Source: Candidatus Zhuqueibacterota bacterium (GTDB taxonomy: Bacteria > Zhuqueibacterota > Zhuqueibacteria > Residuimicrobiales > Krinioviventaceae). From it: a stretch of 64,000 nucleotides of DNA. The translations under genes and the position numbers were made by a program. The notes under the pieces are model-generated. The model was not told where the DNA came from. It made no database searches and was given only the letters and a program-made list of their open reading frames with translations. Location: contig JAFGSB010000158.1 in assembly GCA_016934825.1 (NCBI GenBank), positions 66,842 to 130,841 of the forward strand, given 5' to 3'. Shown piece by piece: positions 890-30,900 of this stretch (position 1 is its first letter; each line of letters starts with the position of its first letter).

Positions 890-1174
890 ATGTCTGAGAA
901 ACAAAATAAGGAACATAAAATAACGGTATTATTTTTAAATCTTGTGCTGAGTATGCAAACCGCCGCTTTACAGAATCTGGGCAAAGCGGAAAATCCCATG
1001 ACCGGCAAGGTGGAAGTTAATCCGGAACAGGCCCGGGCGTATATCGACATGCTGGATATGCTTGAAGCCAAAACACAAAACAATCTAAATGACGACGAAA
1101 AAAGATACCTGGGAAACGCGCTTACTGAATTAAAGACAATTTATGTTGAAGAGTTAAAAAAGAAAGATAAATAG
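890..1174 (+). CDS. DUF1844-like small conserved protein
   Basis: 94-aa ORF with a good RBS (GGAAAGGGAAAATAATG); charged helical protein resembling the DUF1844 family. Confidence 0.45.
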   Translation: MSEKQNKEHKITVLFLNLVLSMQTAALQNLGKAENPMTGKVEVNPEQARAYIDMLDMLEAKTQNNLNDDEKRYLGNALTELKTIYVEELKKKDK

Positions 1175-1222: not shown

Positions 1223-2008
1223 ATGAGTAAAATTGCACAGCACAGCAGGCAGGTATGGGAGGATTTCTGGGTAGAAAAACAGGATATCGGACAGGTATAT
1301 TCCAATGCCGACCGGGTCATTAAACAGATAATTAAACTCGGCCCCTGTGAGAAAAAGTTTGTAATGGAAATCGGTGCGGGATCGGGCAGGGACGGTTTTA
1401 AATTAGTGGACCGGGGCGCAATCGTCATATTGCTGGATTACGCGGAGAGCTCATTATCTGTATTAAAAAAATTGTCCGCTGAATTGAACAAACCGGTGTT
1501 TTTGATCCGTGCTGATGCGTTTCATTTACCGTTCAAATCCGATGTATTAGATATCGTTTTTCATCAGGGTCTGTTGGAACATTTCACAAACCCACAGGAC
1601 CTGTTAAAAGAGAATTACCGGGTTTTGAAACCGGGAGGATTCGCGGTCGCCGACGTGCCACAGCGTTATCATTTCTATACAATTGTTAAACATGTATTGA
1701 TATGGTTGAACAGGTGGTTCGCCGGCTGGGAAACCGAATTCTCAATAAACCAGTTGAAAAGAATTTTTTCCGCAACCGGTTTTCTTGTTCATGATGTCTA
1801 TGGGGACTGGATGCGGCCCAGTTTTTTATATCGTGTTTGGCGGGAGGTCTTGAAAAAATTTAACATAAATATTGCTTTGTATCCCAAACCGGTGCCCGTT
1901 TTGTCGGGCATGTCGGACTTTATATTAAATCGTTTCAGAAATACAAAATTTGCATATTATACGTTTATGGATATTGGTGTCATTGGTATAAAGAAAAAGG
2001 TCAATTAG
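1223..2008 (+). CDS. Class I SAM-dependent methyltransferase
   Basis: Motif I VMEIGAGSGRDG and post-I LKPGG motif; 261 aa. Confidence 0.7.
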   Translation: MSKIAQHSRQVWEDFWVEKQDIGQVYSNADRVIKQIIKLGPCEKKFVMEIGAGSGRDGFKLVDRGAIVILLDYAESSLSVLKKLSAELNKPVFLIRADAFHLPFKSDVLDIVFHQGLLEHFTNPQDLLKENYRVLKPGGFAVADVPQRYHFYTIVKHVLIWLNRWFAGWETEFSINQLKRIFSATGFLVHDVYGDWMRPSFLYRVWREVLKKFNINIALYPKPVPVLSGMSDFILNRFRNTKFAYYTFMDIGVIGIKKKVN

Positions 2009-3148
2009 GTGGCGGATTTTCGTTCTTTGAATATTTTAGCGATAAACTGGCAGGATATAAAAAATCCGTTTGGCGGCGGCGCGGAAGTACATTTTCATGA
2101 AATTTTCAGGCGGGTAGCGGCTTCAGGGCACCATGTTACCTTATTATGCTGTGCTTTTCAAGGTGCAAAAACGGAGGAAATGGTTGACGGAATAAAGATT
2201 ATAAGACGCGGTTCGCGGAATTTTTTTAATTATTGCGTACCTGCTGAGTATAAAAAGTTAAGGAAAAACCGGCAGTTTGATATTGTTATTGACGATATCA
2301 ATAAAATTCCGTTTTATACGCCCCTGTATGTAAAAGAACCGGTACTGGCTATTCTGCACCATTTTTTCAGCAAAAGTATATACCTTGAAACATCCTTTAT
2401 TCCGGCAAGTTATGTGTATTTGAGCGAAAAACTGGTTCCCCGTATTTATCATAAAGTGCCGTTCGCTGTGGTGTCCGAAAGTACCCGTCAGGAACTGATA
2501 CGGGAGGGCGTCCGTTCTCCAATAGAACTTGTTCCCAATGCCGTTGATCCCGCATTATACGATTATTTACCGCAACTGAGGAGTGAAACACCGCTGATCG
2601 GATATTTGGGCAGGGTAAAAAAATATAAAAGTATAGACCATATATTGCGGGCCATGCCTGATGTTTTATCGGCGATCCCCGAAACCCGTCTCCTGATAAT
2701 TGGAGATGGTGATTACAGAAAAAATCTGGAGGAAATTGCATTTTCTTTAGGTATTCGTGACAAAGTCCGTTTTACAGGACATGTACCACAAGAGGAAAAG
2801 GTGAAATTATTAAATACTTTATGGCTGGCCGTTAATCCTTCTCCCAAAGAAGGGTGGGGATTAACTGTCATTGAAGCGAACGCGTGCGGCGTGCCGGTCA
2901 TAGCCGCTGATTCCCCGGGCTTGAGAGATTCTGTGGTCCATGAAGAAACCGGCCAACTGTATCCATACGGGAATATTCAGCAATTGGCAAATCAAATAAT
3001 AAAATTATTAAATACTCAGGAAAATATAAGTAAATTTTCAAAAAATTCATTAAATTGGGTCAATAATTTTAGTTGGAATGAATCAGCCACAAAAATAATT
3101 GACATTATTAAAGCGGCAATTGGACATAAGAGTCGGAGAGATTTATAA
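2009..3148 (+). CDS. Glycosyltransferase family 4 (GT-B)
   Basis: C-terminal EGWGLTVIEANACGVPVIAADSPGLRDSV motif (EX7E-type GT4 signature); GTG start abutting the upstream stop. Confidence 0.8.
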   Translation: MADFRSLNILAINWQDIKNPFGGGAEVHFHEIFRRVAASGHHVTLLCCAFQGAKTEEMVDGIKIIRRGSRNFFNYCVPAEYKKLRKNRQFDIVIDDINKIPFYTPLYVKEPVLAILHHFFSKSIYLETSFIPASYVYLSEKLVPRIYHKVPFAVVSESTRQELIREGVRSPIELVPNAVDPALYDYLPQLRSETPLIGYLGRVKKYKSIDHILRAMPDVLSAIPETRLLIIGDGDYRKNLEEIAFSLGIRDKVRFTGHVPQEEKVKLLNTLWLAVNPSPKEGWGLTVIEANACGVPVIAADSPGLRDSVVHEETGQLYPYGNIQQLANQIIKLLNTQENISKFSKNSLNWVNNFSWNESATKIIDIIKAAIGHKSRRDL

Positions 3149-5832
3149 TGCAAAATTACAAATTAATTAATCGTGTATTCGCGGGTGTCGCTTTTGTTTT
3201 CTCACTTTTTATTTATTTGAAAACAATAGCGCCAACGGTATCATTTTGGGATTGCGGAGAGTTTATTACCTGTTCCTATATTCTGGGAATACCCCATCCA
3301 CCGGGTGCACCGTTTTATTTATTGATCGGACGAATTTTTACAATGCTGCCGATTGCGGAAGATATTGCATTGCGTGTAAATATCATTTCCGCCCTGTCAT
3401 CGGCGGTCACCGTTATGCTGACATATTTGATTATTGTGCGTCTTGTCAGGCAGTGGCGCGGTGAACCCCGGAATTCCGAAGATATGTTTGTGCTCGTCGC
3501 CAGCGGATTGGTCGGCGCCCTTGCTTTTGCTTTTACCGACACATTCTGGTTCAACGCCGTAGAAGCGGAAGTATATGCCATCAGTATGTTCTTTACATCG
3601 ATCATTGTCTGGCTTATACTTGTCTGGCTTGAAAAAGCGGAAGAACCGGGTTCCGAAAGATATATACTCATCATAGCATACCTGGTCGGTCTGGCAATTG
3701 GCGTGCATTTGCTGATGATCCTTGCGCTCCCCGCCGTTTTTATGATCGTCTATTTTAAATATTTGGACCGGACCGGCCAAAAAATAAATATAACCAACCT
3801 GCTTGTCTTTGGCGGTATAACTCTGGTAATATTTGCGGTGATCTACCCGGGAGTTGTACAGTGGATCCCGAGAATGGCCGGGAAATTTACATTGTGGTCA
3901 TTGTTACTGCTGCTTTTCACCTTACTCATTAGTACGTTCTGGGTTATTTATTTTAAACAGCGGATCGCCAGTCTGGCGTTAATATCTTTACTGCTGGTTA
4001 TATTGGGTTATTCAACATATACAATGATCTATATCCGTTCGGGACTGGATCCGGAAATTGATGAAAATGATCCTGAAACCACCAAACAATTGGTCAGTTA
4101 TCTGAACCGTGAGCAGTACGGAACCTGGAGTACTTTTCCCCGGCGCTTTAAAGGAATGCCCCAGGAGTGGGAATTCAAACAGTTACAGGATTACGGCAGG
4201 GTTCCGAAAAGCCAGGGTTATGCCACTTACCAGTGGGATAAACAGATGGATTTTATGTGGAATTATCAAATTAAAAAGATGTACATTCGCTATTTTCTGT
4301 GGCAGTTTGCCGGCAAGGGTAAAACCATTGGTCAGGACGGATTTATTACGGAAACGATCTCCTTTAACGGGTTGCTGGGCCTGCCCCTGTTCCTTGGTCT
4401 CATTGGTATGGTACATCATTTTTACAGGCATTGGCGGCACGCTTTATCCATCACCGCATTATTGTTACTGACAGGTATAGCAATAGTCATTTATCTGAAT
4501 CAGGAGGATCCGCAGCCGCGGGAGCGTGACTATGTTTTTGTGGGGTCGTTTTTCGCGTTTGCCATCTGGATCGGTATGGGAGTGACGGCCGTGATTGAAA
4601 TGATACAGGAGGCCCTGCATAATAAATCAAAACTTAGGTATCTGCTTTCAGTTGCGGCAAGTGTTTTGTTATTGCTTGCGGTACCCGTGAATTTGCTGGC
4701 AACTAATTATACGGAACATAACAGAACCGGCAATTATGTCGCTTATGATTATTCTTATAATATTTTACAAACGTGTGATGAAAACGGTATATTATTTACA
4801 AACGGAGATAATGATACTTTTCCGTTATGGTTCCTTCAGTATGTTTACGGGGTGCGCAAAGATGTCAGGGTGGTAAACCTGAGTCTTTTGAACACCAACT
4901 GGTACATCAAACAACTTAAGAAAGAAGAACCCAAAGTACCTATATCACTGTCCGATTCAAAGATTGACGAACTGGAAGTAATGGGCTGGAAGGAGCAAAC
5001 GATCACCATTCCTGTTCCGAAGGACGTCAGGGAAAGAGTACTCACAGATCTGGGTGAAGTGAAGGAGTTGATTCCGGAAGAAAGTGACATCCCTGCGGAA
5101 ATCAGTTTTCAGGTCAAACCGACCGTGTATGGCCAGGGTATCCGCGTACAGGACTATATGATTTTGAATATATTGTACGCAAACCGCTGGCAAAAACCGA
5201 TCTATTTTGCCGTTACGGTTTCGAATCAGAACAAGCTGAACCTTGACGATTATCTCAGGATGGATGGTTTGTGTTTTGAAGTGACCCCGGCAGTGGATGA
5301 AGATTTAATGGCAAAAAAGTTACATGAACATTTGTTTGAAACCTTTCAGTTCCGCAGTCTGAATGATCCCGATGTTTATCTGAATGACAATATAAAAGGA
5401 TTATTACAGAATTACCGCGCCGCCTTTTTACGTCTGGCGGATTATTACCGGCGCAAGCAAAATATGCAAAGTATGTTAAGTGTTCTTGACAGGATGGAAA
5501 CGGTGATGCCGGACAGTGTTATCCCGCCGCCGGATATCCGTCTGCCGATTCAAATCGGTTCATTATATGATCTGGCGGGAGAGGCTGATAAATTCATTAA
5601 AAAAGTAGAGTGGGCAGTGAGTTCTGATCCCGACAATGCGTATGCTGTCGGTACCCTGGTCAGTCTTTACAGCAGGGAAGGGGACCATCAAAAAGCCGTC
5701 GCGTTGTTGGAAAAATGGATGCTGACGCATCCCGATGATCCGGAAGCTCGGAATAAACTGGAACAGGAAAAGGCTTTGATGAATGCTGTTCGTGACTCTG
5801 TAAAAGAAACCGATAATAATGTGAATCAGTAA
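3148..5832 (+). CDS. DUF2723/TMEM260-like GT-C fold membrane glycosyltransferase with C-terminal TPR region (candidate protein O-glycosyl/mannosyltransferase)
   Basis: N-terminal FWDCGEFITCSYILGIPHPPGAPFYLL motif typical of DUF2723; about 11 TM helices; soluble C-terminal half with TPR-like helices. Confidence 0.6.
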   Translation: MQNYKLINRVFAGVAFVFSLFIYLKTIAPTVSFWDCGEFITCSYILGIPHPPGAPFYLLIGRIFTMLPIAEDIALRVNIISALSSAVTVMLTYLIIVRLVRQWRGEPRNSEDMFVLVASGLVGALAFAFTDTFWFNAVEAEVYAISMFFTSIIVWLILVWLEKAEEPGSERYILIIAYLVGLAIGVHLLMILALPAVFMIVYFKYLDRTGQKINITNLLVFGGITLVIFAVIYPGVVQWIPRMAGKFTLWSLLLLLFTLLISTFWVIYFKQRIASLALISLLLVILGYSTYTMIYIRSGLDPEIDENDPETTKQLVSYLNREQYGTWSTFPRRFKGMPQEWEFKQLQDYGRVPKSQGYATYQWDKQMDFMWNYQIKKMYIRYFLWQFAGKGKTIGQDGFITETISFNGLLGLPLFLGLIGMVHHFYRHWRHALSITALLLLTGIAIVIYLNQEDPQPRERDYVFVGSFFAFAIWIGMGVTAVIEMIQEALHNKSKLRYLLSVAASVLLLLAVPVNLLATNYTEHNRTGNYVAYDYSYNILQTCDENGILFTNGDNDTFPLWFLQYVYGVRKDVRVVNLSLLNTNWYIKQLKKEEPKVPISLSDSKIDELEVMGWKEQTITIPVPKDVRERVLTDLGEVKELIPEESDIPAEISFQVKPTVYGQGIRVQDYMILNILYANRWQKPIYFAVTVSNQNKLNLDDYLRMDGLCFEVTPAVDEDLMAKKLHEHLFETFQFRSLNDPDVYLNDNIKGLLQNYRAAFLRLADYYRRKQNMQSMLSVLDRMETVMPDSVIPPPDIRLPIQIGSLYDLAGEADKFIKKVEWAVSSDPDNAYAVGTLVSLYSREGDHQKAVALLEKWMLTHPDDPEARNKLEQEKALMNAVRDSVKETDNNVNQ

Positions 5833-5859
5833 AATGGACTGTTTAAAGGAATTGTTTAT

Positions 5860-6840
5860 TTGGCGGAAAAACGTTTAGATAATACGACAAGTTTCAAACA
5901 GGTTTTATTTACATTTCTAAAAATATGTATTAGCGGTTTGTTGATCTGGTTTCTGTTGGCGCGAATCGGTGTGAACAAATTATTAGCTCAGCTAACCGCC
6001 GCTAATATTTACTGGATATTAGCAAGTATCTTTATATTTTCTCTGAGTAATATCCTGGGCGCTTTGCAATGGTACTTGTTATTAAAATCCAAAGCAATAA
6101 AGTTGTCCCTCTGGCGTGTGATCCAATTTTATCATGTCGGTTTATTTTTTAACAATTTTCTCATCGGTTACGTCGGAGGGGATGCTTTTAGAATTTATGA
6201 TATCAGAAAGAGTTCCGGTAATACGAACGGAGCGCTGACAACCGTATTTTTTGACCGGTTTATCGGGTTTTTTACATTGTCCACTCTTGCCGTGCTGGTT
6301 ACATTGATATGGATGAAACGGTTAACATCTCATGTTACAGTTTATACGATATTAATTGTGTTCGTAATATGGGTAATCGGATTTTATTTTCTGTTTCAGG
6401 AAAATGTCGCCAGAAAATTCTCATGGCTGTTTAGACTTTTTTTGCCCAAAATGATACATATCAAGTTAAAGGAGTTATATTACGAATTAAACAAATTCAG
6501 GCATAATAAAATTTTACTTTTACGTATCTTTGTTATCGCGTTCGGAGTGCAGACTTTGAGAATATTGACGCATCTATTCGCCGCGAGGGCGGTGGGTGTA
6601 AAACTGGAACTGTTATATTTCTTTATTTTTGTTCCCATTATCGCGCTGGCGGCCAGTTTGCCCATATCCCTGGGGGGGATCGGAGTTCGTGAACAAAGCG
6701 GCGTAACCTTGTTTACGCAGGTAGGGGTTTTGTCCGCAAAGGTTGTTGCGTTCGAATTTATTGCCTATCTGGTGGGGATTGTCGCGACAATTCCCGGCGG
6801 ATTGATTTTTGCGTTCCGAAAAAATCATAAAAAAATATGA
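5860..6840 (+). CDS. UPF0104 / lysylphosphatidylglycerol-synthase-TM-region-like flippase-domain membrane protein
   Basis: 326-aa polytopic protein (about 8 TM) with MprF-type flippase-like topology. Confidence 0.5.
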   Translation: MAEKRLDNTTSFKQVLFTFLKICISGLLIWFLLARIGVNKLLAQLTAANIYWILASIFIFSLSNILGALQWYLLLKSKAIKLSLWRVIQFYHVGLFFNNFLIGYVGGDAFRIYDIRKSSGNTNGALTTVFFDRFIGFFTLSTLAVLVTLIWMKRLTSHVTVYTILIVFVIWVIGFYFLFQENVARKFSWLFRLFLPKMIHIKLKELYYELNKFRHNKILLLRIFVIAFGVQTLRILTHLFAARAVGVKLELLYFFIFVPIIALAASLPISLGGIGVREQSGVTLFTQVGVLSAKVVAFEFIAYLVGIVATIPGGLIFAFRKNHKKI

Positions 6841-6880
6841 TCAGGAAAAATACTATTTAATAAAATTCAGGAACAGTGTT

Positions 6881-7939
6881 ATGATAAGAATAAAAAATTT
6901 TAAATTACTATTATCGGTTTTAATTGTTATAATGATCTTTGGAATGGAGTGTGCGCAAAAAGGCCAATCCATGGGATCGCTTCGGAATATTGTCGTGCTT
7001 GCCGATTCACTATTATGGGAACAGGTTGATGATTCCGTTACCCCGATTCTTTCCACAGAAAAATATACACCTCAACCTGAAAAGATTTTTGTGTTGAACA
7101 GAATCGATCCCGGAAGAATCGGAGAATTAAAAAAGTATTCACAAATTTTACTGATCGGTACATTAGACCAGCAGGGGGTCACAAAAAATCTGTTAGATCA
7201 GTTACTGCCGGCCGGTTCAAAAGGCAGGCAGTTGGTCGAAAACAATGAAAGATTCTTTTTCCAGGTAAAAGACCCATGGTCTCGTGAACAGTTGTTAGGT
7301 GTATTAGTGAGTAATGACCTGCCGACGCTTTTGGATAATTTGAAAACGGACAATAAAACGATTTTCGATGCCTTTGATCAACATGTCAATAGCAGGGTTT
7401 TTAACCAGGCTTATTACACATATGAACAAAAGAATATTGAAAAAAAACTGATGAATCAATATGGATGGAGCATCAGGGTGCCCCATGATTATGTAATGAC
7501 GATTGATTCCAGCGCGTCACGGTTTATTTGGCTTCGCCGGACGGGGCCAAACAGACTTATCAGGGATTTGTTTGTCTATTGGGAATCCGTTACTGATCCT
7601 TCATCATTGAGTAAGGAATGGATGCTTGAGAAAATGGCTAAAGTCGCAAAAGAATATTATAAAGGATATTATGTTTATTCAGACAGTTTAATCAAAGTGG
7701 AAGAAGAACTGGTCAACTTTTATGATAATTATTCGATAAAACTGGAGGGTATCTGGCAGGACGATTCCCTGAATGTAGGCGGTCCGTTCAGAAGCTATGC
7801 CTTTTATGATGAAACGGACGGACGTATATATTTACTGGATGGTTCCGTCTGGGCTCCCGAACAAAGAAAATGGCCATTTTTGCGTCAATTAGATATTATA
7901 ATGCAAACTTTTAAAACAAAAGCGCCGGAATCCCATTAA
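6881..7939 (+). CDS. Hypothetical lipoprotein
   Basis: Signal peptide plus lipobox (LIVIMIFGMEC); soluble domain with no recognised motifs. The ORF track starts at 6809 but the internal Met fits the signal peptide better. Confidence 0.45.
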   Translation: MIRIKNFKLLLSVLIVIMIFGMECAQKGQSMGSLRNIVVLADSLLWEQVDDSVTPILSTEKYTPQPEKIFVLNRIDPGRIGELKKYSQILLIGTLDQQGVTKNLLDQLLPAGSKGRQLVENNERFFFQVKDPWSREQLLGVLVSNDLPTLLDNLKTDNKTIFDAFDQHVNSRVFNQAYYTYEQKNIEKKLMNQYGWSIRVPHDYVMTIDSSASRFIWLRRTGPNRLIRDLFVYWESVTDPSSLSKEWMLEKMAKVAKEYYKGYYVYSDSLIKVEEELVNFYDNYSIKLEGIWQDDSLNVGGPFRSYAFYDETDGRIYLLDGSVWAPEQRKWPFLRQLDIIMQTFKTKAPESH

Positions 7940-7990
7940 ACCCAAACACCGGTGAATATAGGGGTGGATTTTTTAAAAAGGAGTAATCTC

Positions 7991-8452
7991 ATGCCAAAAG
8001 TTGCTATTGTAATGGGGAGCACTTCGGACGCGGACGTCATGGCTGTTTCCAGGACATATTTGCAGTTTTTTAATATTGACAGTGAAGTATTTACCCTTTC
8101 GGCTCACCGGACACCGGAACAAACAGCCGCTTTCGCAAAATCCGCTGAGGAAAAGGGTTTCTCGGCAATCATTGCGGGGGCGGGAATGGCCGCGCATTTA
8201 CCGGGAGTCATTGCCAGTTATACATCCCTGCCGGTTATTGGCGTTCCTTTGAGCGGTTCCGCCTTGAACGGTGTGGATGCCCTGTACGCAATCGTTCAGA
8301 TGCCCGCAGGTGTTCCGGTCGCTACCATGGCAATCGGTAAAGCGGGCGCGGCCAACGCGGCCGTATTTTGCGCAAGAATACTGGCCGCCCAATACAACGA
8401 TATTAAAGAAAAATTATTGCAGTTTGTTGAACAGGGGTGTAAACTTGGATAA
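7991..8452 (+). CDS. purE: N5-carboxyaminoimidazole ribonucleotide mutase PurE
   Basis: PKVAIVMGSTSD and AGMAAHLPGVIASYTSLPVIGVP motifs; strong RBS (AAGGAG) 8 nt upstream of the ATG at 7991. Confidence 0.9.
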   Translation: MPKVAIVMGSTSDADVMAVSRTYLQFFNIDSEVFTLSAHRTPEQTAAFAKSAEEKGFSAIIAGAGMAAHLPGVIASYTSLPVIGVPLSGSALNGVDALYAIVQMPAGVPVATMAIGKAGAANAAVFCARILAAQYNDIKEKLLQFVEQGCKLG

Positions 8453-8464
8453 TTGTTGGAGAAA

Positions 8465-9370
8465 ATGAAAATACTGGTTACAGGTTGTTACGGTTTATTG
8501 GGACAAACGGTTTGTGAACGTGCTCCAAAATCTTTTCTAGTTTACGGAGTTGATATACATGAGGGAAATATCGTTTTACCGGATGATAAATATTTTTCTC
8601 TTGATCTGACAGATCGAAAAAAAACTCTGGAATTATTGCAGGATTTAAAGCCGGATTATATTATCAATTCCGCCGCGTACACCGATGTTGACGGCGCGGA
8701 AACGGAACGGGAATTGTGTTGGAAAATCAATGTTGATCTTGTGGAAAATTTAATTTATGGCGCCCGTAAGATTAAAGCCGGAATCGGCCACATATCAACA
8801 GATTATATCTTTGATGGAAAATCAGGTCCTTATGCGGAAGACGCGCATCCCAATCCGATAGGATATTACGGGCGTTCCAAACTTGCCGCGGAGAATGCTT
8901 TGATTGGATCATCGGTGGATTATTTTATAGCCCGTACCATGGTCCTTTACGGAATGTCAAAGAACGGTAAAACCAATTTTGTCACCTGGCTCATCGCCCA
9001 GTTGACAAATCAACGACCGGTCAAGATAGTAAATGATCAATACGGAAATACGACCCTTGCGGATGAACTGGCCGAGGGTATTTGGACATTAATAAAAAGT
9101 GGTTATTCAGGAATTTTAAATATTGCCGGCCGGGAAATCATCAACCGTTATGAATTCGCCGTCAGAATTGCGGAGGTTTTTGGATTCGACAGGGATTTGA
9201 TAACAGCCGTAACCACCGCTGAATTCAACCAACCCGCACCAAGACCGTTAAATTCCGGCCTGATTGTTGACAAGGCTCTTAACGAGTTAAATATTGTGTT
9301 AAGCGATGTTGTTGAAGGATTACATAAATTTAAATCAATTTATTATTCGGGATCACTGGTGCCCGGTTGA
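8465..9370 (+). CDS. rfbD: dTDP-4-dehydrorhamnose reductase (RfbD family)
   Basis: MKILVTGCYGLLGQ Rossmann motif, SAAYTDVD and YGRSK catalytic region. Confidence 0.8.
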   Translation: MKILVTGCYGLLGQTVCERAPKSFLVYGVDIHEGNIVLPDDKYFSLDLTDRKKTLELLQDLKPDYIINSAAYTDVDGAETERELCWKINVDLVENLIYGARKIKAGIGHISTDYIFDGKSGPYAEDAHPNPIGYYGRSKLAAENALIGSSVDYFIARTMVLYGMSKNGKTNFVTWLIAQLTNQRPVKIVNDQYGNTTLADELAEGIWTLIKSGYSGILNIAGREIINRYEFAVRIAEVFGFDRDLITAVTTAEFNQPAPRPLNSGLIVDKALNELNIVLSDVVEGLHKFKSIYYSGSLVPG

Positions 9371-9602
9371 CGGAAACCTTAAGCAGAAATTAAGTTTTTT
9401 AAAAAATGAATCGATAAAATATAGGAGTTCATTTACTTAATAAGACAGGAAACAATATAATATCAGAAAATTTGAATAATTTGATGTTTAGGGTATTGTG
9501 TTCGGTATCAGCCGGCTACAAGTACTCCGATGAATAAAATTTTTTTCGTCCCGTAACGGTTAAAAGGAAAAACCTGTAAACACATAAATAGCGGAGCGGC
9601 CT

Positions 9603-10319
9603 TTGAAAATTTTAGTGATTATCCCTACCTTTAATGAAAGCCAAAATATTGAAAGATTGTTAAATGAGATAACCGGTCAGAATATCAACGGTCTCGATAT
9701 TCTTGTGGTTGATGATAATTCTCCGGACGGCACAGGTGAACTTGTGAAAAGATTTTCTGAAAAGAACTCCGCTGTTCATCTGTTAGAGAGGAATGAAAAG
9801 TTGGGACTTGGAACAGCTTATGTAACCGGTTTTAAATACGCTTTGGAGAAAAATTACGATCTGATCATTGAAATGGACGCCGATTTTTCACACGATCCGA
9901 AAGAACTTTTAAATTTAATCCAGGCCACAAGCCAGTATGATCTTGTTATGGGATCGAGATATGTAAAAGGCGTAAATGTAATTAACTGGCCTTTAAGCAG
10001 ACTGCTGCTCAGTATGGGCGCCAGTTTGTATACGCGTTTGATAACGGGTTTACCCTTGCATGATTGCACGAGCGGTTATAAATGCTTCAAGCGTAAAGTT
10101 CTGGAGAGTATAGACCTGGACAGGATACAGTCGGACGGATATTCTTTTCAAATCGAAATGAGTTTTAAAGCCTGGAAGAAAGGCTTTTCGCTTGGAGAAA
10201 TCCCGATCGTTTTTCTGGACCGTACTGCCGGTACTTCAAAAATGTCGAAAAAAATTCTCAGGGAAGCAATATGGATGGTTTGGAATTTAAAGTTACAAAG
10301 TATACTGGGCAAACTTTGA
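9603..10319 (+). CDS. GT2 polyprenol-monophosphate sugar synthase (Dpm1/dolichol-phosphate mannosyltransferase-like)
   Basis: IPTFNESQNI...VVDDNSPDGT and DADFSHDP motifs of the Dpm1-like GT2 family; TTG start. Confidence 0.8.
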   Translation: MKILVIIPTFNESQNIERLLNEITGQNINGLDILVVDDNSPDGTGELVKRFSEKNSAVHLLERNEKLGLGTAYVTGFKYALEKNYDLIIEMDADFSHDPKELLNLIQATSQYDLVMGSRYVKGVNVINWPLSRLLLSMGASLYTRLITGLPLHDCTSGYKCFKRKVLESIDLDRIQSDGYSFQIEMSFKAWKKGFSLGEIPIVFLDRTAGTSKMSKKILREAIWMVWNLKLQSILGKL

Positions 10320-27800: not shown

Positions 27801-27944
27801 TTCGGTGAGGGCGCTTCTTTACGCGCGCCGCTGGCGATGGCTGTTATCGGAGGTTTGATCAGTTCGACAATTCTGACATTAATTGTTATACCCTGTGTGT
27901 ATTGGCTGGTTGACAGATTAACTCATCCTGCTTTTGTTGACTAA
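24855..27944 (+). CDS. Efflux RND transporter permease (AcrB/HAE family)
   Basis: 1029 aa, 12-TM topology with two large periplasmic loops; conserved TM4 and TM10 regions. Confidence 0.9.
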   Translation: MENITKFSVKYPVTILMLILAVLLLGYISFKKLGIDLFPDLNNPRIFVEIKAGERPPEEIEKQFVENIESLAIRQRNAIQVSSISRVGSAQITVEYTWETDMDEAFLDLQKALTGYSQNSDIDNISISRHDPNSAPVMLVGFSNPQITDMDELRRVAENYIRNELIRLEGVAEVELLGYEVKEAVIETNNYLLEAYGLTTDEVTNRVMNFNRNMSGGSIEEMGRKYIIKGVGEIKSLQDIENVIVTYKNAEQNVSAGNEAISKRIPVFLKDIATVRLINKDPENIIHVNGNRCMALAIYKETKYNTVKASTTLLDKLNELRKALPGYELFVISNQGEFITKSINEVKQTALIGILLAVLVLFVFLRRIGVTVIISLAIPISVVATFNLLYFKGLTLNIMTLGGLALGAGMLVDNAIIVMENIYRNLEEGMSLKEAAITGTARVGGAITASTLTTIVVFLPIVYLHGTAGELFKDQAWTVAFSLLSSLVVAILVIPMLSVWLLKREENYKYQTITFPKYRTFLDRMLNKSGMIILGAIALVIIAVLLVPIVGSEFIPKTDSDEFSINLKLPEGTELRRTESTVRNIEDMVKQLFGDNILTVYSKIGPSASLTGIDNEAYEDENTATVLIKLDKNRKIGSEEIINRLSLSIGAIPDIEAEFIQEQTELQTTLGTDAAPIVLEIKGNDLKVIQNLTEQAAEKLENMNDLFNIATSFDEGRPEVDVVIDRVRAGLLNVSINTISDQLTSQLAGQEAGQWQNDGELQDIIVKLPKVDIKQLSGITLQSGDQKISLDDVTDIRITQTTNEIYRRNQTRIGKITAHIRSDKPFDSIVKRIDDEMSTITYPPDYKYEITGEELKRREAFDNLKFALLLSIILVYMVMASQFESLVHPFIILFTIPLAGVGSVFLFFILGKSFNVMAYIGIIMLAGIAVNDSIILIDAINQLKSQGRKQRDAILTAAQWRIRPIIMTSLTTILALFPLTIGFGEGASLRAPLAMAVIGGLISSTILTLIVIPCVYWLVDRLTHPAFVD

Positions 27945-30900
27945 AATTAGCGGACATATGAATTTTTTCGGATCTTTAATAAAACGTAAAGTTTTTATCA
28001 GTATGCTTTTTGTGGGGCTGTGCCTTTTGGGTATTGTCTCCTATAAACAGCTTCCGGTTGAATTATTCCCCAACGCCGAACTCCCTTTTTTAATAGTTCA
28101 GGTCAGTTCCGTCCAGGAAATGGACCCGGAGTATCTTGAAAAACAGGCCATTGTGCCCGTCGAAGGAGTTATTACAACACTGGACGGGATTGAAAAGATT
28201 GAATCATACGTGGAAAGACGCCGGGGGATTGTTTTTGTATATTTCAATCAGAAAACCAAAATTAAATATGCCTATTTAAAGCTCGAAGAAAAAATAAATT
28301 CGATCAAAGCGTCGCTTGGCGATGAATTTTTTGTAACGGTTTTTAAGGTCGATACGGATCAGATTGCCAATATGTTCATGACCCTGCAGGTCCGCGGCAG
28401 CGGCGGTTTGAACAGGGTGAGGGAGGTTATCGATCAAAAAGTGACCCCGGAGTTACAAAATATCGACGGCATCGCCAATGTGGAGATCTTTGGCGGACAG
28501 CAAAAATCAATTGAGATCATTCTGGATGAACAGGCATGCCGCGCCCATGGAATTACCCCCGCGACAATCCGTTCCATAATTTCAGGTAATAATAAATATA
28601 AATCATTTGCCGGTAAAGTATACAGTGAAGATAAATATTATTTTGTCAATGTTACGGCCGATTATGGAAATGTCGAAGATATTGAAAATATTATTGTGGA
28701 CAGCAACGGCCCGGTTTTTCTAAAAGATATCGCGGATGTGTATTTTGGCGTTAAAGAACAGACAACCATCAGCCGCGTTAACGGCAAGGAAGCCATAACC
28801 ATTCAACTCATAAGAGATACGCAGGTAAATCTGATTGATCTATCGCATAAAACAAAAAGGATTATCAAACAGTTAAATGAAAATCTGGCGCCGGATGATG
28901 TAGAAGTTGTGATTCAAAGTGATTCCGCCGAAATTGTGGAAAAAAATATTCATCTCATCATACAGCTTGCTCTGGTCGGCGGGTTGCTGGCCGTCGTCAT
29001 CCTCTGGATATTTTTACGTAACATGCGGCTGGTTTTGATCATTGCATTATCCATGCCTGTTTCCATTTTCACCGCATTTAATTTTTTCTATGCGTTCGGT
29101 ATAACCATCAATAGTCTGACCCTTGTCGGAATGGCGCTGGCAATCGGTATGCTGCTGGATAACAGCGTGGTGGTATTGGAAAATATATACCGAATCTTTG
29201 CCAATTACAAGAATCCCGATCAGGCGGTTGTCCAGGGAACCGGTGAGGTATGGCGGTCCATACTGGCAGCCACATTGACCACAATTACGGTTTTTCTCCC
29301 GTTTGCCTTTGCGTCCAACTTTTTAATCAAATTGCTTGGCCGTCATATCGGCGTATCCATTATTTCAACCCTCGGAGTTTCGCTTGTTATTGCATTTTTA
29401 CTCATCCCTATGGCCGCATATATAATTTTAAAGAATTTAAAAAAGGATTCTCCCGTTAATTTTCAATTCGTTTCGCATAATAACAGGCTGTTGCAAATTT
29501 ATAATGTTGTGTTAAAATCGTGCCTTCGTTTTCCCGCCAGAACGATAATCGGTACAATTTTTTTATTTTTTGTAAGTTTGATGATCTGTCTTGCCCTCAG
29601 TATAAATATACCTCGGGAAACGGAAGTTAAGGAATTTAATCTGTACTTGACCATGCCGCGCGGTTCAACCCTGGAATCGACCGATGCGGCAACGGCCGAA
29701 CTCGAAAAACTGCTGGAGAATATAAAGGAAAAAGATGAGATCATCAGCAAAATATATGAAGAGGAATCAATTGTAACCATAAAATTAAAGGATAATTATT
29801 ATAATATTGATAACCGGTCTATACCGCAAATCAAGGAAAAGTTAGAAAAAACCATTAATGATTTTCGCGTGGCGGATGTCAGTTTTGACCAGCCCCAGTC
29901 GGGAGGACGTTTCAGGGGCGGGGCGGGACAAAACCCGGGCCTCGGTCTCGAAAATCTGCTGGGTATCGGCAGCCAGAACGAGCGGGTTGTGATTAAGGGC
30001 AATGATTTCGAAAAGATGCGAAATATCGCTGATGATATTCGAGATTATATTGCCGATCTGACAACCGTTAGTAATACGAATATCAATATGTCCGACGACC
30101 GCCCGGAAATTCAATTGTTATTAGATAAACAATTATTAAGTCAATTCAATGTTTCGTTGAATGCCATCGCCGGCGAGTTATCAACATTTGAAAATGAGTT
30201 CTCATCTAATATTAAATTCAAACAGAATACCGAAGAATATGATATTATCATTAAAACCAATAATGAAAAACAAAAGTCTTTCGATGATCTGCAAAATATT
30301 CGTATCCCGTCTGAAACCGGCGGAGAATACGAACTGGACAACCTCAGCCGTATTATTTACTCGCAGGGCATTTCCGGGATCAATCGTGTCAACCAGGAAA
30401 AACAAATAGAAATTACCTATAGATTTATCAGCGAGGTAACCGCGTCAAAGGAGTATCTGAATTCGGCGAGAAGCGAAATCGACCAGATTATCGCGAATCT
30501 GAACCTGCCGTCCGGAATAGCCGTCGAGGTCATTCATGACAGCAGTGAACTGCAGGAATTTTATTTTTTGATTGGCGCTACGTTTATATTAATTTTTATG
30601 ATCCTCGCATCCGTTTTCGAATCATTATCGACGCCGTTTGTAATTATGTTTACCATTCCGCTGGCGGCGATTGGCTCCCTGTGGGCGCTGATCCTGACCG
30701 GGAACTCTATACTGAATGCCAACACGTTGATCGGATTTATTATTTTGCTGGGGGTTGTCGTGAATAACGGTATTATTTATATCGACTATACGCGAATATT
30801 GATCCGCAAAAAATATAAAAGGTCCCGCGCGTTAATGATGGCAGGACGGGCGCGGGTCCGGCCGATTTTGATCACCGCTATTACGACCATCATTGCCATG

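What the first reader, a model, noticed from the sequence alone, without database searches (positions are those of the whole stretch)
1223..10319. Envelope glycosylation toolkit resembling a lipid-linked, periplasm-facing O-glycosylation pathway
The GT2 Dpm1-like polyprenol-phosphate sugar synthase (9603), the MprF-like flippase-domain protein (5860) and the DUF2723 GT-C-fold enzyme (3148) together match the logic of polyprenol-P-sugar synthesis, flipping and periplasmic transfer. DUF2723 is a homolog of human TMEM260, recently shown to be a protein O-mannosyltransferase. A GT4 enzyme, a methyltransferase and rfbD are also present. The long TPR tail of the DUF2723 protein suggests protein-substrate recognition.
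Basis: inference. Interest (0 to 1): 0.6.

Follow-up and report, generated by a model that had tools for sequence, protein, structure and literature searches.

The report
Bacterial TMEM260-type envelope glycosylation gene cluster
A conserved operon in an uncultured KSB1 bacterium encodes a bacterial relative of the human protein O-mannosyltransferase TMEM260 together with the enzyme that makes its lipid-linked mannose donor and a candidate flippase; the same enzyme family, unstudied, is present in Bacteroidota, whose protein O-glycosylation still lacks its initiating enzyme.

Summary
ORF 3148-5832 is a TMEM260-family GT-C enzyme (PDB 9RQL, E 7e-20). It keeps the human residues D52, H67, R264, Y267 and the catalytic base D441, as D35, H50, R321, Y324 and D554. 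It has 13 predicted membrane helices, and its catalytic loops, Rossmann-like domain and roughly 150-residue TPR tail face the periplasm. The 238-residue GT2 is a soluble DPM1/Ppm1-type polyprenyl-phosphate mannose synthase, already named so in GenBank.

The order methyltransferase, GT4, DUF2723, flippase-like protein, DUF4837 lipoprotein, PurE, RmlD-like protein, GT2 is conserved across KSB1 and Calditrichota with varying flanks. In Ignavibacteria-type genomes the methyltransferase-GT4 pair sits on the other side of DUF2723.

Donor synthesis and periplasmic transfer are well supported. The flippase's substrate and the acceptor are inferred. A protein acceptor is most likely; LPS or a glycolipid is not excluded.

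Most novel reading: this is the missing core machinery (transferase, flippase, mannose-rhamnose core) of Bacteroidota-type O-glycosylation. DUF2723 proteins are expressed in P. gingivalis, T. forsythia and P. intermedia, and no paper discusses them.

The parts
1223..2008 (+). Class I SAM-dependent methyltransferase, 261 aa, with no membrane helix (cytoplasmic). It travels with the GT4 gene.
   Evidence: Pfam Methyltransf_11 at 4.6e-18. No specific NCBIfam model reaches its cut-off. No hydrophobic segment. GenBank MBN2413668.1, 'class I SAM-dependent methyltransferase'. It lies next to GT4 and DUF2723 in KSB1 (upstream of DUF2723) and in Ignavibacteria/Bacteroidota MAGs (downstream).
2009..3148 (+). 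GT4 (GT-B fold) glycosyltransferase, 379 aa, cytoplasmic. Its stop codon overlaps the start codon of the next gene.
   Evidence: Pfam Glycos_transf_1 at 3.9e-41 and Glyco_transf_4. All NCBIfam hits are far below their cut-offs; the full-length one is Agl16. The best full-length PDB matches are PimA and PimB' (E about 2e-15). No membrane helix. Found in 22 of 83 DUF2723 loci.
3148..5832 (+). TMEM260-family (DUF2723) GT-C glycosyltransferase, 894 aa. It has 13 predicted membrane helices (residues 1-524), a periplasmic Rossmann-like domain (about 525-745) and a TPR domain (about 746-892). Key residues: D35, E38, H50, R321, Y324, R458/R460, D554.
   Evidence: PF11028 at 9.3e-69. PDB 9RQL TMEM260: E 7.1e-20 with the single sequence, 1.2e-26 with the profile. 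AF2 model pLDDT 80.8. The Foldseek top hits are all GT-C enzymes: PglB, STT3, AftA, ALG12, Pmt4, ArnT. Residue mapping. Invariance. Topology.
5860..6840 (+). Stand-alone MprF-flippase-domain (UPF0104/PplT) membrane protein, 326 aa, about 8 membrane helices. It begins 27 nt after the GT-C gene.
   Evidence: PF03706 at 6.5e-38 over profile positions 2-301 of 302. TIGR00374 flippase-like, 63.5 bits against a cut-off of 43.2. Hydropathy. It lies next to DUF2723 in all 16 loci that have it: directly downstream, or separated from it only by a generic GT2 gene. Literature.
6881..7939 (+). DUF4837 lipoprotein, 352 aa (the ORF could start at TTG 6809; GenBank starts at 6881). Periplasmic, two domains; the C-terminal domain has a PsbP/Mog1/LpqN-like fold. 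Role unknown: accessory protein, escort, or bystander.
   Evidence: PF16125 at 3.7e-42. A signal-peptide Cys is conserved in homologues. AF2 pLDDT 91.1. Foldseek hits: PsbP, M. tuberculosis Apa, MTC28, LpqN, Tsi3 (E 6e-6 to 1.5e-4, target-normalised TM-score (TMt) about 0.4-0.6). Found in 18 of 83 loci, between the flippase-like gene and purE wherever both are present.
7952..8452 (+). PurE (N5-CAIR mutase). A purine-synthesis gene embedded in the block, most likely a co-transcribed bystander.
   Evidence: PF00731 at 3.5e-55; TIGR01162 at 176.5 bits against a cut-off of 149.6. It keeps this position in 14 loci.
8453..9370 (+). RmlD-like NAD(P)-dependent reductase (dTDP-4-dehydrorhamnose reductase family), cytoplasmic. 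In relatives it lies directly upstream of the GT2 gene.
   Evidence: PF04321 at 1.8e-63. TIGR01214 at 221.9 bits against a cut-off of 224.05. The RmlD-GT2 gap is 7-34 nt in relatives. No rmlA, rmlB or rmlC in the window.
9603..10319 (+). Soluble DPM1/Ppm1-type GT2, 238 aa: polyprenyl-phosphate mannose (hexose) synthase.
   Evidence: PDB 5MLZ (P. furiosus DPMS): E 2.5e-33 over the whole catalytic domain, with DAD, SRY, R131 and S135 conserved. No membrane helix. Identical to GenBank MBN2413675.1, 'polyprenol monophosphomannose synthase'. Found in 19 of 83 DUF2723 loci.

Best explanation
The block encodes a lipid-linked glycosylation route that acts on the periplasmic face of the inner membrane.

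Step 1 (supported by sequence). The soluble GT2 (9603-10319) makes polyprenyl-phosphate-hexose, most likely beta-mannosyl-phosphoryl-polyprenol from GDP-mannose, on the cytoplasmic face.

Step 2 (inferred). The lipid-linked sugar is moved to the outer leaflet. The UPF0104/MprF-type protein encoded 27 nt after the transferase gene is the best candidate. Before flipping, the sugar may be extended by the GT4 and methylated by the methyltransferase.

Step 3 (enzyme class, chemistry and topology supported; acceptor inferred). The 13-helix TMEM260-family GT-C enzyme binds the donor through D35, H50, R321 and Y324. It uses D554 of its periplasmic Rossmann-like domain as the base, and transfers the sugar with inversion to a hydroxyl group. 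The acceptor is most likely Ser or Thr of exported proteins, held by the Rossmann-like and TPR domains as in human TMEM260.

The DUF4837 lipoprotein may be an accessory. PurE is a bystander. The RmlD-like protein supplies a deoxyhexose for the same or a neighbouring glycan.
For: Transferase (ORF 3148):
- PF11028 at 231 bits, and PF28495 in all homologues.
- PDB TMEM260 hit at E 7e-20 with the sequence and 1e-26 with the profile.
- The residues shown by mutagenesis to be essential in human TMEM260 (D52, H67, R264, Y267, D441) align to D35, H50, R321, Y324 and D554. These are invariant in 30 KSB1-type sequences and in at least 84 of 85 sequences from several FCB (Fibrobacteres-Chlorobi-Bacteroidetes group) phyla.
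- The AF2 model folds as GT-C.
- Hydropathy and the positive-inside pattern give 13 helices, with all these residues and the C-terminal domains outside the cytoplasm.
- Prevotella intermedia's DUF2723 protein is O-glycosylated at residues 823 and 844. The equivalent stretch of P0451, a close relative of that protein, aligns to about residues 623-650 of ORF 3148. This supports a periplasmic C-terminal domain.

Donor synthase (GT2):
- DPMS hit at E 2.5e-33, with the DAD motif and the phosphate ligands conserved.
- No membrane helices.
- Named 'polyprenol monophosphomannose synthase' in GenBank.

Linkage:
- The genes from 1223 to 9370 are packed with gaps of 0-27 nt.
- The order is conserved in KSB1 and Calditrichota with varying flanks. 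The methyltransferase-GT4 pair changes side in Ignavibacteria-type loci.
- The trio of UPF0104, GT-C and AglD-like GT2 has been predicted in archaea.
Against: - No acceptor is identified. The TPR is the least conserved region (42% mean identity, against 62% for the membrane and Rossmann-like parts), and only one Asn (N755) of a possible Asn ladder is conserved.
- The Dpm1-like GT2 lies within 10 kb of DUF2723 in only 19 of 83 loci, and the flippase-like gene in 16 of 83.
- In Ignavibacteria the downstream neighbour is a gene like LPS heptosyltransferase II. In Chlorobi it is lpxA.
- UPF0104 proteins with experimental backing move phospholipid or glycolipid products, as in MprF and GpgSDF.
- A single-sugar transfer does not need a cytoplasmic GT4 or a methyltransferase.
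- The R264/Y267 match rests on a locally weak alignment (1.9 bits), and R355 could not be placed.
- Sugar identity cannot be read from sequence.
- The whole region is a co-directional array of housekeeping genes, so some of the synteny may be inherited rather than functional.
Confidence: 0.5

Rival explanations
1. The donor chemistry is the same, but the acceptor is a lipid-anchored glycan and not a protein. The GT-C enzyme decorates lipid A or LPS core (as ArnT, FlmK and RgtA-D do), or it extends a glycolipid made by the GT4 and flipped by the UPF0104 protein (as PimA/PimB' then PimE with Ppm1, or as GpgSDF). The DUF4837 lipoprotein would act as a periplasmic glycolipid escort.
For: - A GT9 gene scoring 129.5 bits against the 134.6-bit cut-off for LPS heptosyltransferase II lies 32-164 nt downstream of DUF2723 in most of the 16 Ignavibacteria loci that carry it. 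lpxA follows directly in Chlorobi.
- The GT4's best full-length solved relatives are the phosphatidylinositol mannosyltransferases PimA and PimB'.
- GT4 plus a UPF0104 flippase is an established glycolipid module. UPF0104 fusions to GT-B domains and to methyltransferases are recorded.
- The C-terminal domain of DUF4837 resembles LpqN, a mycobacterial envelope lipoprotein.
- Cytoplasmic glycosyltransferases (GT4, generic GT2, a GT2 fused to a phosphoglycosyltransferase, GT9) are the recurrent neighbours.
Against: - The enzyme belongs to the TMEM260 family and gives no ArnT/PMT_2 Pfam hit.
- It keeps the acceptor-side catalytic Asp in the Rossmann-like domain, and it keeps a TPR module. In the one characterised member these hold a peptide.
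- The GT9 and lpxA adjacency is lineage-specific and absent from KSB1.
- The PimA similarity (E about 1e-15) is ordinary for GT4 enzymes.
- The PsbP-like fold match is moderate (target-normalised TM-score about 0.5).
Confidence: 0.27
2. The block is not one pathway. It is a conserved co-directional run of housekeeping genes holding two or three independent envelope modules:
- GT4, methyltransferase and flippase making a membrane glycolipid;
- RmlD and GT2, with the GT2-phosphoglycosyltransferase fusion seen in relatives, feeding a polysaccharide;
- the GT-C enzyme acting alone.

These would be kept together by inherited synteny and not by shared function.
For: - PurE, and in relatives a xanthine permease and a PfkB kinase, sit inside the block.
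- recG and the DUF1844 gene upstream are as conserved as the glycosylation genes. In other phyla DUF2723 follows lepA-lepB-hemW.
- Almost all genes over more than 50 kb are on one strand.
- The GT2 has its own 232-nt upstream gap with a promoter-like site.
- In relatives the RmlD-GT2 pair is followed by a GT2 fused to a phosphoglycosyltransferase.
Against: - A GT-C enzyme needs a polyprenyl-P-sugar donor, and the only candidate synthase in 64 kb is this GT2.
- The methyltransferase-GT4 pair stays next to DUF2723 even when order and flanks change between phyla.
- Wherever the flippase-like gene is present it lies next to DUF2723: directly downstream, or separated from it only by a generic GT2 gene.
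- The coding sequences of the first four genes abut or overlap.
Confidence: 0.15

Closest known systems
Human TMEM260 protein O-mannosyltransferase (PDB 9RQL/9RQM/9RQN; GT-C)
   Same: - Same Pfam families (TMEM260_N and TMEM260_2).
- Same domain order: a membrane GT-C core, then a luminal or periplasmic Rossmann-like domain, then TPR.
- D52, H67, R264, Y267 and D441 are conserved as D35, H50, R321, Y324 and D554.
- The donor is a polyprenyl-type phosphate-sugar.
   Different: - Significant alignment covers only the first about 200 residues and about 130 residues around the Rossmann-like domain.
- 13 predicted helices, not 11.
- The peptide-contact residues are not conserved (R439 aligns to N552, P443 to D556, E466 to S579).
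- No IPT-domain substrates are known in bacteria, so the acceptor is unknown.
- It is encoded with a GT4, a methyltransferase, a flippase-like protein and a lipoprotein.
Actinobacterial protein O-mannosylation (Ppm1 plus the PMT enzyme Rv1002c, family GT39)
   Same: The logic matches: a soluble Ppm1-type GT2 makes polyprenyl-P-mannose, and a GT-C enzyme transfers it to exported proteins on the outer face of the membrane (established knowledge).
   Different: The transferase family is different: no PMT Pfam hit was found. The host is a diderm of the FCB (Fibrobacteres-Chlorobi-Bacteroidetes) group. No Ppm2/Lnt-type membrane partner for the GT2 was found.
ArnC/ArnT, with FlmF/FlmK and RgtE/RgtA-D (LPS modification through polyprenyl-P-sugars)
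   Same: A Dpm1-like GT2 paired with a periplasm-facing GT-C enzyme. ArnC is the second-best solved relative of the GT2 (E 3e-10), and ArnT appears among the fold matches.
   Different: - No ArnT/PMT_2 Pfam hit at E<=0.01.
- ArnC has C-terminal membrane helices; this GT2 has none.
- The flippase type differs: ArnE/F are SMR-family proteins, and the protein here is UPF0104.
GpgSDF of P. aeruginosa and HexSDF of C. difficile
   Same: A cytoplasmic GT4 and a stand-alone UPF0104 flippase-like protein in one operon.
   Different: Here there is no deacetylase. A GT-C enzyme, a Ppm1-type GT2 and a methyltransferase are present. The flippase-like gene follows the GT-C gene, not the GT4 gene.
Archaeal Agl pathways: AglD with its UPF0104 C-terminal domain plus a GT-C enzyme, and AglJ/AglP lipid-linked glycan assembly
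   Same: - The combination of a dolichyl-P-sugar synthase, a UPF0104 flippase domain and a PMT/STT3-like GT-C enzyme has been predicted.
- The best NCBIfam hits of the GT2 and the GT4 are AglJ and Agl16.
- A SAM methyltransferase acting on a monophosphate-linked glycan has a precedent (established knowledge).
   Different: All these scores are far below the family cut-offs. The proteins here are separate, not fused. The archaeal route is N-glycosylation by AglB.
General O-glycosylation of Bacteroidota (D-S/T-A/I/L/V/M/T sites)
   Same: - The reducing-end core is mannose plus rhamnose, and the glycans are often methylated.
- The core transferase and the core flippase are undiscovered.
- DUF2723 proteins are expressed inner-membrane proteins in three model species.
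- This cluster offers a mannosyltransferase homologue, a mannose-donor synthase, a rhamnose-pathway reductase, a GT4, a methyltransferase and a flippase candidate.
   Different: - KSB1 is outside Bacteroidota.
- No glycoproteome exists for it.
- No LFG-type locus (metG-wzx-GTs) is in the window.
- The link is a hypothesis only.

Membership tests
TMEM260 family (PF11028 + PF28495, GT-C) | N-terminal GT-C module matched above Pfam's gathering score | tested here: met
   PF11028 at 231.2 bits against a cut-off of 24.2, residues 35-205. PF28495 is recorded for all close homologues.
TMEM260 family (PF11028 + PF28495, GT-C) | Asp and His of the sugar-recognition motif in the first extracytoplasmic loop (human D52, H67) | tested here: met
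   They align to D35 and H50 (domain 1, 46.9 bits). Both are invariant in 30 of 30 sequences. Across phyla D35 is kept in 85 of 85 and H50 in 84 of 85. D35 was part of the pattern used to retrieve the loci; H50 was not.
TMEM260 family (PF11028 + PF28495, GT-C) | Arg and Tyr of the donor-loading loop (human R264, Y267) | tested here: met
   Human R-E-E-Y-G aligns with R321-E-Q-Y324-G. This segment is colinear with the two significant segments but scores only 1.9 bits by itself. The motif is kept in 84 of 85 bacterial sequences and lies in the long periplasmic loop.
TMEM260 family (PF11028 + PF28495, GT-C) | Catalytic base Asp in the Rossmann-like domain (human D441) | tested here: met
   Human R-G-D441-L-P aligns with N-G-D554-N-D (domain 3, 28.8 bits). 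D554 is kept in 85 of 85 sequences.
TMEM260 family (PF11028 + PF28495, GT-C) | Arg in membrane helix 10 that contacts the sugar (human R355) | tested here: inconclusive
   R355 lies just outside the aligned stretch. Invariant R458 and R460 (PQPRERDY) sit 2-4 residues from the expected position. This motif was a retrieval pattern.
TMEM260 family (PF11028 + PF28495, GT-C) | C-terminal TPR domain with an Asn ladder that holds the acceptor peptide | tested here: inconclusive
   TPR is present (TPR_19 and TPR_14; eight helices at 747-892). Only N755 is conserved (76 of 85), and the TPR is the least conserved region.
TMEM260 family (PF11028 + PF28495, GT-C) | Transfer of mannose from polyprenyl-type P-mannose to Ser/Thr of a protein | not testable with these tools
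   This needs enzymology or glycoproteomics.
DPM1/Ppm1-type polyprenyl-phosphate mannose synthase (GT2) | GT-A catalytic domain with the DAD metal and diphosphate motif | tested here: met
   MDADFSHDP aligns with P. furiosus DPMS DADLQHPP. The overall E is 2.5e-33 over residues 1-229.
DPM1/Ppm1-type polyprenyl-phosphate mannose synthase (GT2) | Ligands of the polyprenyl phosphate (PfDPMS R117 of SRY, R131, S135, K178) | tested here: met
   GSRY, the R of NWPLSR, and S are conserved. K178 is Ser here (alignment read), so three of the four ligands are kept.
DPM1/Ppm1-type polyprenyl-phosphate mannose synthase (GT2) | Soluble catalytic subunit without its own membrane domain (as in DPM1 of types I/II, and Ppm1) | tested here: met
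   238 aa with no hydrophobic segment. A membrane partner was not identified.
DPM1/Ppm1-type polyprenyl-phosphate mannose synthase (GT2) | GDP-mannose as the donor | not testable with these tools
   The GenBank name is an annotation, not a test.
MprF flippase domain / PplT (PF03706, TIGR00374) | Full-length match above curated cut-offs, in a multi-helix membrane protein | tested here: met
   PF03706 at 131.3 bits against 33.4, covering profile positions 2-301 of 302. TIGR00374 at 63.5 bits against 43.2. About 8 hydrophobic segments. No solved relative was found by sequence.
MprF flippase domain / PplT (PF03706, TIGR00374) | Translocation of a lipid, and which lipid | not testable with these tools
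   The candidate substrates (polyprenyl-P-sugar or the GT4 product) are inferred.
ArnT / PMT_2 (GT83) and PMT (GT39) | Match to the PMT_2, ArnT or PMT Pfam models (PMT enzymes also carry MIR domains) | tested here: not met
   No such family was reported at E<=0.01. The similarity is only at the level of the GT-C fold.
RmlD (dTDP-4-dehydrorhamnose reductase) | Score above the equivalog cut-off of TIGR01214 | tested here: inconclusive
   221.9 bits against a cut-off of 224.05, full length. PF04321 at 214.7 bits.
Bacteroidota general O-glycosylation system | Glycans on D-(S/T)-(A/I/L/V/M/T) sites of exported proteins, and an LFG-type locus | not tested
   No glycoproteome exists for KSB1, and no LFG-like locus is in the window. 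Only the presence of DUF2723 proteins in three Bacteroidales was shown.

The most novel reading that the evidence does not exclude
The DUF2723/TMEM260-type enzyme is the long-sought initiating transferase of the general protein O-glycosylation of Bacteroidota and their FCB (Fibrobacteres-Chlorobi-Bacteroidetes group) relatives. This KSB1 operon would preserve the whole missing 'core glycan' machinery in one place.

1. Ppm1 makes polyprenyl-P-mannose.
2. The GT4 adds rhamnose, with the RmlD-like protein supplying dTDP-rhamnose.
3. The methyltransferase methylates the glycan.
4. The UPF0104 protein is the missing core flippase.
5. The GT-C enzyme transfers the short monophosphate-linked glycan en bloc to Ser or Thr.

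That would make it a TMEM260-family O-oligosaccharyltransferase. It would also give the first assigned polyprenyl-P-mannose-type flippase.
Probability: 0.3. Interest if true: 0.85.

Novelty: new variant of a known kind. Interest (0 to 1): 0.6.

Why it matters
1. It shows that the residues just defined by cryo-EM and mutagenesis in human TMEM260, a congenital-disease enzyme, are conserved in a very large bacterial family. That family has 1,769 representative clusters (50% identity) at E<=1e-30. This offers tractable bacterial models and an evolutionary origin for the human enzyme.

2. Bacteroidota O-glycosylate hundreds of exported proteins through a mannose-rhamnose core. A 2025 review states that the core transferase and the core flippase are undiscovered, and it suggests looking for O-mannosylation homologues. 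DUF2723 proteins are expressed in P. gingivalis, T. forsythia and P. intermedia, and no paper discusses them. The KSB1 operon gives a concrete gene list to test by knockout and glycoproteomics in cultured species.

3. The tight pairing of a stand-alone UPF0104 protein with a GT-C enzyme and a Ppm1-type synthase gives a bacterial candidate for moving polyprenyl-P-mannose across the membrane. That step is still unassigned in eukaryotes.

Tried and rejected
- **AF2 on DUF4837 with locus-derived sequences.** It was redone with database homologues.
- **Solved relatives of the flippase-like protein.** None was found by sequence.
- **Literature.** Searches for DUF2723, PF11028 and PG2144/PGN_0192 found nothing on bacterial members. 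A search for a Bacteroides O-mannosyltransferase or core-glycan enzyme found no identification.
- **Promoter and terminator scan.** It gave no clear operon boundaries.
- **Rest of the window.** There are no further glycosylation genes, no second DUF2723 gene and no rmlA, rmlB or rmlC.
- **The roughly 350-aa GT2 next to DUF2723 in Marinimicrobia and Calditrichota.** I considered it as an alternative polyprenyl-P-sugar synthase and rejected that. It is a generic GT2 (MftF, PgaC or rhamnosyltransferase-like, all below cut-off).
- **Taxon names for the long (about 1,100-aa) homologues.** Cluster look-up was uninformative. Only the neighbourhood and the similarity to Prevotella peptides suggest Bacteroidales.
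- **Fold match of DUF4837 to M. tuberculosis Apa, a classic O-mannosylated protein.** I did not read this as evidence that DUF4837 is a substrate. To my knowledge, the glycosylated parts of Apa are its disordered tails.
- **D-S/T-x motif counts in the periplasmic domain of ORF 3148.** I counted these by eye: about 2 observed against about 1 expected. This was not pursued.

Full report
**1. What is in the sequence**

Positions 1223-10319 hold eight tightly packed + strand ORFs. Pfam and NCBIfam identify them as follows.

| Coordinates | Identity |
|---|---|
| 1223-2008 | SAM methyltransferase |
| 2009-3148 | GT4 glycosyltransferase |
| 3148-5832 | TMEM260-like/DUF2723 protein with C-terminal TPR |
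| 5860-6840 | LPG_synthase_TM 'flippase-like' protein |
| 6881-7939 | DUF4837 protein |
| 7952-8452 | PurE |
| 8453-9370 | RmlD-like reductase (221.9 bits against a 224.05 cut-off) |
| 9603-10319 | 238-residue GT2 |

- Upstream lie recG and a DUF1844 gene. Downstream are glycolate-oxidase-like genes.
- The rest of the window is housekeeping: efflux pumps, lysine synthesis and others. It holds no further glycosylation genes.
- Six of the proteins are identical to GenBank entries MBN2413668-MBN2413675 of a candidate division KSB1 MAG. The entries are named generically, except the GT2, which is 'polyprenol monophosphomannose synthase'.

Three corrections apply: DUF4837 and PurE were omitted, the TPR is short, and the GT2 is set apart by a 232-nt gap.

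**2. The GT-C enzyme (ORF 3148)**

Its only non-TPR relative among solved structures is human TMEM260. The E-value is 7e-20 with the single sequence and 1e-26 with a 30-sequence profile.

The 2026 cryo-EM preprint on TMEM260 describes these features:
- eleven membrane helices, followed by a luminal Rossmann-like domain and a TPR domain;
- D52 and H67 in a sugar-recognition motif;
- R264 and Y267 in a donor-loading loop;
- R355 in helix 10;
- D441 of the Rossmann-like domain as the catalytic base.

All of these were tested by mutagenesis.

In the HMMER alignment these residues map as follows.

| Human TMEM260 | ORF 3148 | Local motif in ORF 3148 |
|---|---|---|
| D52 | D35 | FWDCGEF |
| H67 | H50 | PHPPGAP |
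| R264, Y267 | R321, Y324 | REQYG |
| D441 | D554 | NGDNDTFP |

- All are invariant in 30 KSB1-type homologues.
- All are kept in at least 84 of 85 sequences from KSB1, Calditrichota, Marinimicrobia, Ignavibacteria, Chlorobi and Bacteroidota MAGs.
- Caveat: the loci were retrieved through the WDCGEFI and PQPRERDY patterns. Invariance of D35, E38 and residues 455-462 is therefore partly by construction. H50, R321, Y324 and D554 are independent of those patterns.
- Caveat: the REQYG segment aligns with a locally weak score.
- R355 could not be placed.

The AF2 model (pLDDT 80.8) matches only GT-C enzymes: PglB, STT3, AftA, ALG12, Pmt4 and ArnT.

Hydropathy and charge distribution give 13 helices with the N-terminus inside the cell. 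This puts every residue above, the Rossmann-like domain (about 525-745) and the TPR (about 746-892) in the periplasm.

There is indirect experimental support for this topology. The Prevotella intermedia orthologue is O-glycosylated at residues 823 and 844. Through the P0451 alignment, these correspond to the Rossmann-like domain of ORF 3148.

Conservation falls from 84% identity in the first loop to 62% in the membrane and Rossmann-like parts and 42% in the TPR. The same trend is reported for TMEM260.

**3. The donor synthase**

- The GT2 aligns over its whole length with the catalytic domain of P. furiosus dolichyl-phosphate mannose synthase (E 2.5e-33).
- It keeps the DAD motif and three of the four dolichyl-phosphate ligands defined for that enzyme: the SRY arginine, R131 and S135. 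K178 is not kept.
- It has no membrane helix, like DPM1 and Ppm1.
- Its next-best solved relative is ArnC.
- Sugar specificity cannot be read from the sequence.

**4. The other genes**

- **Flippase-like protein.** It is a full-length, stand-alone UPF0104/PplT domain. The literature gives two precedents. In archaea this domain is fused to the AglD dolichyl-P-sugar synthase and neighbours a GT-C enzyme. In bacteria it accompanies GT4 enzymes that make glycosylated lipids, as in GpgSDF and HexSDF, and it is found fused to GT-B and methyltransferase domains.
- **GT4 and methyltransferase.** Both are cytoplasmic and match no specific family. The GT4's best full-length solved relatives are PimA and PimB'.
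- **DUF4837.** It is a lipoprotein. Its C-terminal domain has a PsbP/Mog1/LpqN-type fold (pLDDT 91).

**5. Conservation of the neighbourhood**

In KSB1 and Calditrichota genomes down to about 43% identity the order is methyltransferase, GT4, DUF2723 (one or two copies), flippase-like gene, DUF4837, purE, rmlD-like gene, GT2. A permease and a kinase gene are sometimes inserted before the rmlD-like gene. The outer flanks differ between genomes.

The table gives the number of the 83 non-redundant loci in which each gene lies within 10 kb of DUF2723.

| Neighbour | Loci (of 83) |
|---|---|
| Generic GT2, some fused to a phosphoglycosyltransferase | 25 |
| GT4 | 22 |
| Dpm1-like GT2 | 19 |
| DUF4837 | 18 |
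| RmlD-like | 17 |
| Flippase-like | 16 |
| GT9 | 16 |
| Methyltransferase | 14 |

- In Ignavibacteria and Bacteroidota MAGs the arrangement is lepA-lepB-lepB-hemW-DUF2723-(methyltransferase)-GT4. The methyltransferase-GT4 pair has changed side but stayed adjacent. This is the best evidence that the link is functional.
- In Marinimicrobia a generic GT2 follows DUF2723.
- In Ignavibacteriales a gene like LPS heptosyltransferase II follows it.
- In Chlorobi lpxA follows it.

DUF2723 thus behaves as a core, vertically inherited envelope gene of the FCB (Fibrobacteres-Chlorobi-Bacteroidetes) group, with lineage-specific glycosyltransferase partners.

**6. Most likely mechanism**

- *Shown by sequence:* a cytoplasmic Ppm1-type synthase, and a periplasm-facing TMEM260-type transferase with a complete active site.
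- *Inferred:* the UPF0104 protein moves the lipid-linked sugar; the acceptor is Ser or Thr of exported proteins; the donor sugar is mannose.

I put the whole statement at 0.5. The rivals are a lipid-anchored acceptor, either LPS or a GT4-made glycolipid (0.27), and independent modules held together by inherited synteny (0.15).

**7. Comparison with known systems, and novelty**

The system works like TMEM260, or like Ppm1/PMT-type O-mannosylation. On every testable criterion the transferase is a member of the TMEM260 family. It is not a member of the ArnT or PMT families.

No paper treats bacterial DUF2723 proteins. The only full-text mention says TMEM260 has 'distant homologs in bacteria'. The family is large: 1,769 representative clusters at E<=1e-30.

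The composition is not that of any described system. It combines a TMEM260-type GT-C enzyme, Ppm1, a UPF0104 protein, a GT4, a methyltransferase and a lipoprotein. I therefore rate it a new variant of a known kind.

**8. The lead that raises the interest**

A 2025 review of Bacteroidota O-glycosylation makes four points:
- the reducing-end core is mannose, rhamnose and glucuronic acid, of which only the hexose and the deoxyhexose remain when the LFG locus is deleted;
- methylation of the glycans is common;
- the core flippase and the core transferase are undiscovered;
- homologues of eukaryotic O-mannosylation should be sought.

Supplementary tables of three glycoproteome papers list DUF2723 proteins of about 124 kDa as expressed inner-membrane proteins:
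- P. gingivalis, PGN_0192;
- T. forsythia, Tanf_01470;
- P. intermedia, BWX39_09045.

P0451, a 1,109-residue homologue that closely resembles the P. intermedia protein, keeps all the motifs.

The KSB1 operon holds a candidate for each missing function:
- a mannosyltransferase homologue;
- a mannose-donor synthase;
- a rhamnose-pathway reductase;
- a GT4;
- a methyltransferase;
- a flippase-like protein.

A model in which a short monophosphate-linked glycan is built in the cytoplasm, flipped and transferred en bloc would explain the cytoplasmic partners. The single-sugar model does not.

This is a hypothesis (probability about 0.3). It is directly testable in cultured species.

Noticed in passing
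window 27934-32634 (+): A 1,566-residue ORF joins a complete RND transporter (ACR_tran, residues 15-1031) to an ABC ATPase domain (ABC_tran, 1297-1440). It lies directly after a normal RND pump, a membrane-fusion protein and an outer-membrane factor. This is an unusual fusion of two transporter energy types, or possibly a frameshift or read-through artefact.
   Followed up: no
window 45744-47786 (+): A 680-residue protein combines an [FeFe]-hydrogenase large-subunit-like domain and ferredoxin clusters with HisKA/HATPase_c. It looks like a sensory hydrogenase-type histidine kinase.
   Followed up: no
window 6881-7939; model m8b545d1e205d: DUF4837, a family of unknown function, is a lipoprotein. 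Its confidently modelled C-terminal domain has the PsbP/Mog1/LpqN fold. The top matches include cyanobacterial PsbP and the M. tuberculosis proteins Apa, MTC28 and LpqN.
   Followed up: partly
L005/L006/L013, L010, L012, L016, L082: Some KSB1-type genomes carry two tandem DUF2723 genes. Both copies are about 49% identical to the window's protein. The first copy has faint TPR hits and the second has none. They could act as a heteromer or have different acceptor specificities.
   Followed up: no
L004 19705-21777; also L016, L018, L024, L028, L032, L035, L044: In relatives the RmlD-like/Dpm1-like GT2 pair is followed by a fusion protein of about 510-700 residues. In the one example annotated with Pfam (L004) it joins a GT2 domain to a Bac_transf phosphoglycosyltransferase domain. 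The window has no copy.
   Followed up: partly
supplements of PMC8729774, PMC8550257, PMC10897501: The DUF2723 proteins of P. gingivalis, T. forsythia and P. intermedia are themselves listed as O-glycoproteins. The P. intermedia protein is modified at DTL-823 and DSI-844.
   Followed up: partly
L063 11321-12118 and the other Chlorobi loci; L078 10869-11933 and 15 other Ignavibacteria loci: lpxA lies directly downstream of DUF2723 in Chlorobi. A gene like LPS heptosyltransferase II (129.5 bits against a 134.6 cut-off) lies directly downstream in Ignavibacteria.
   Followed up: partly
window 1-50000: Almost every credible gene is on the + strand, and cumulative GC skew rises steadily over the first 16 kb. 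This fits a long leading-strand stretch.
   Followed up: no
window 890-1174: A small DUF1844 gene follows recG. It lies immediately upstream of DUF2723 in Marinimicrobia, and upstream of the methyltransferase gene in KSB1. Its function and any link to the cluster are unknown.
   Followed up: no
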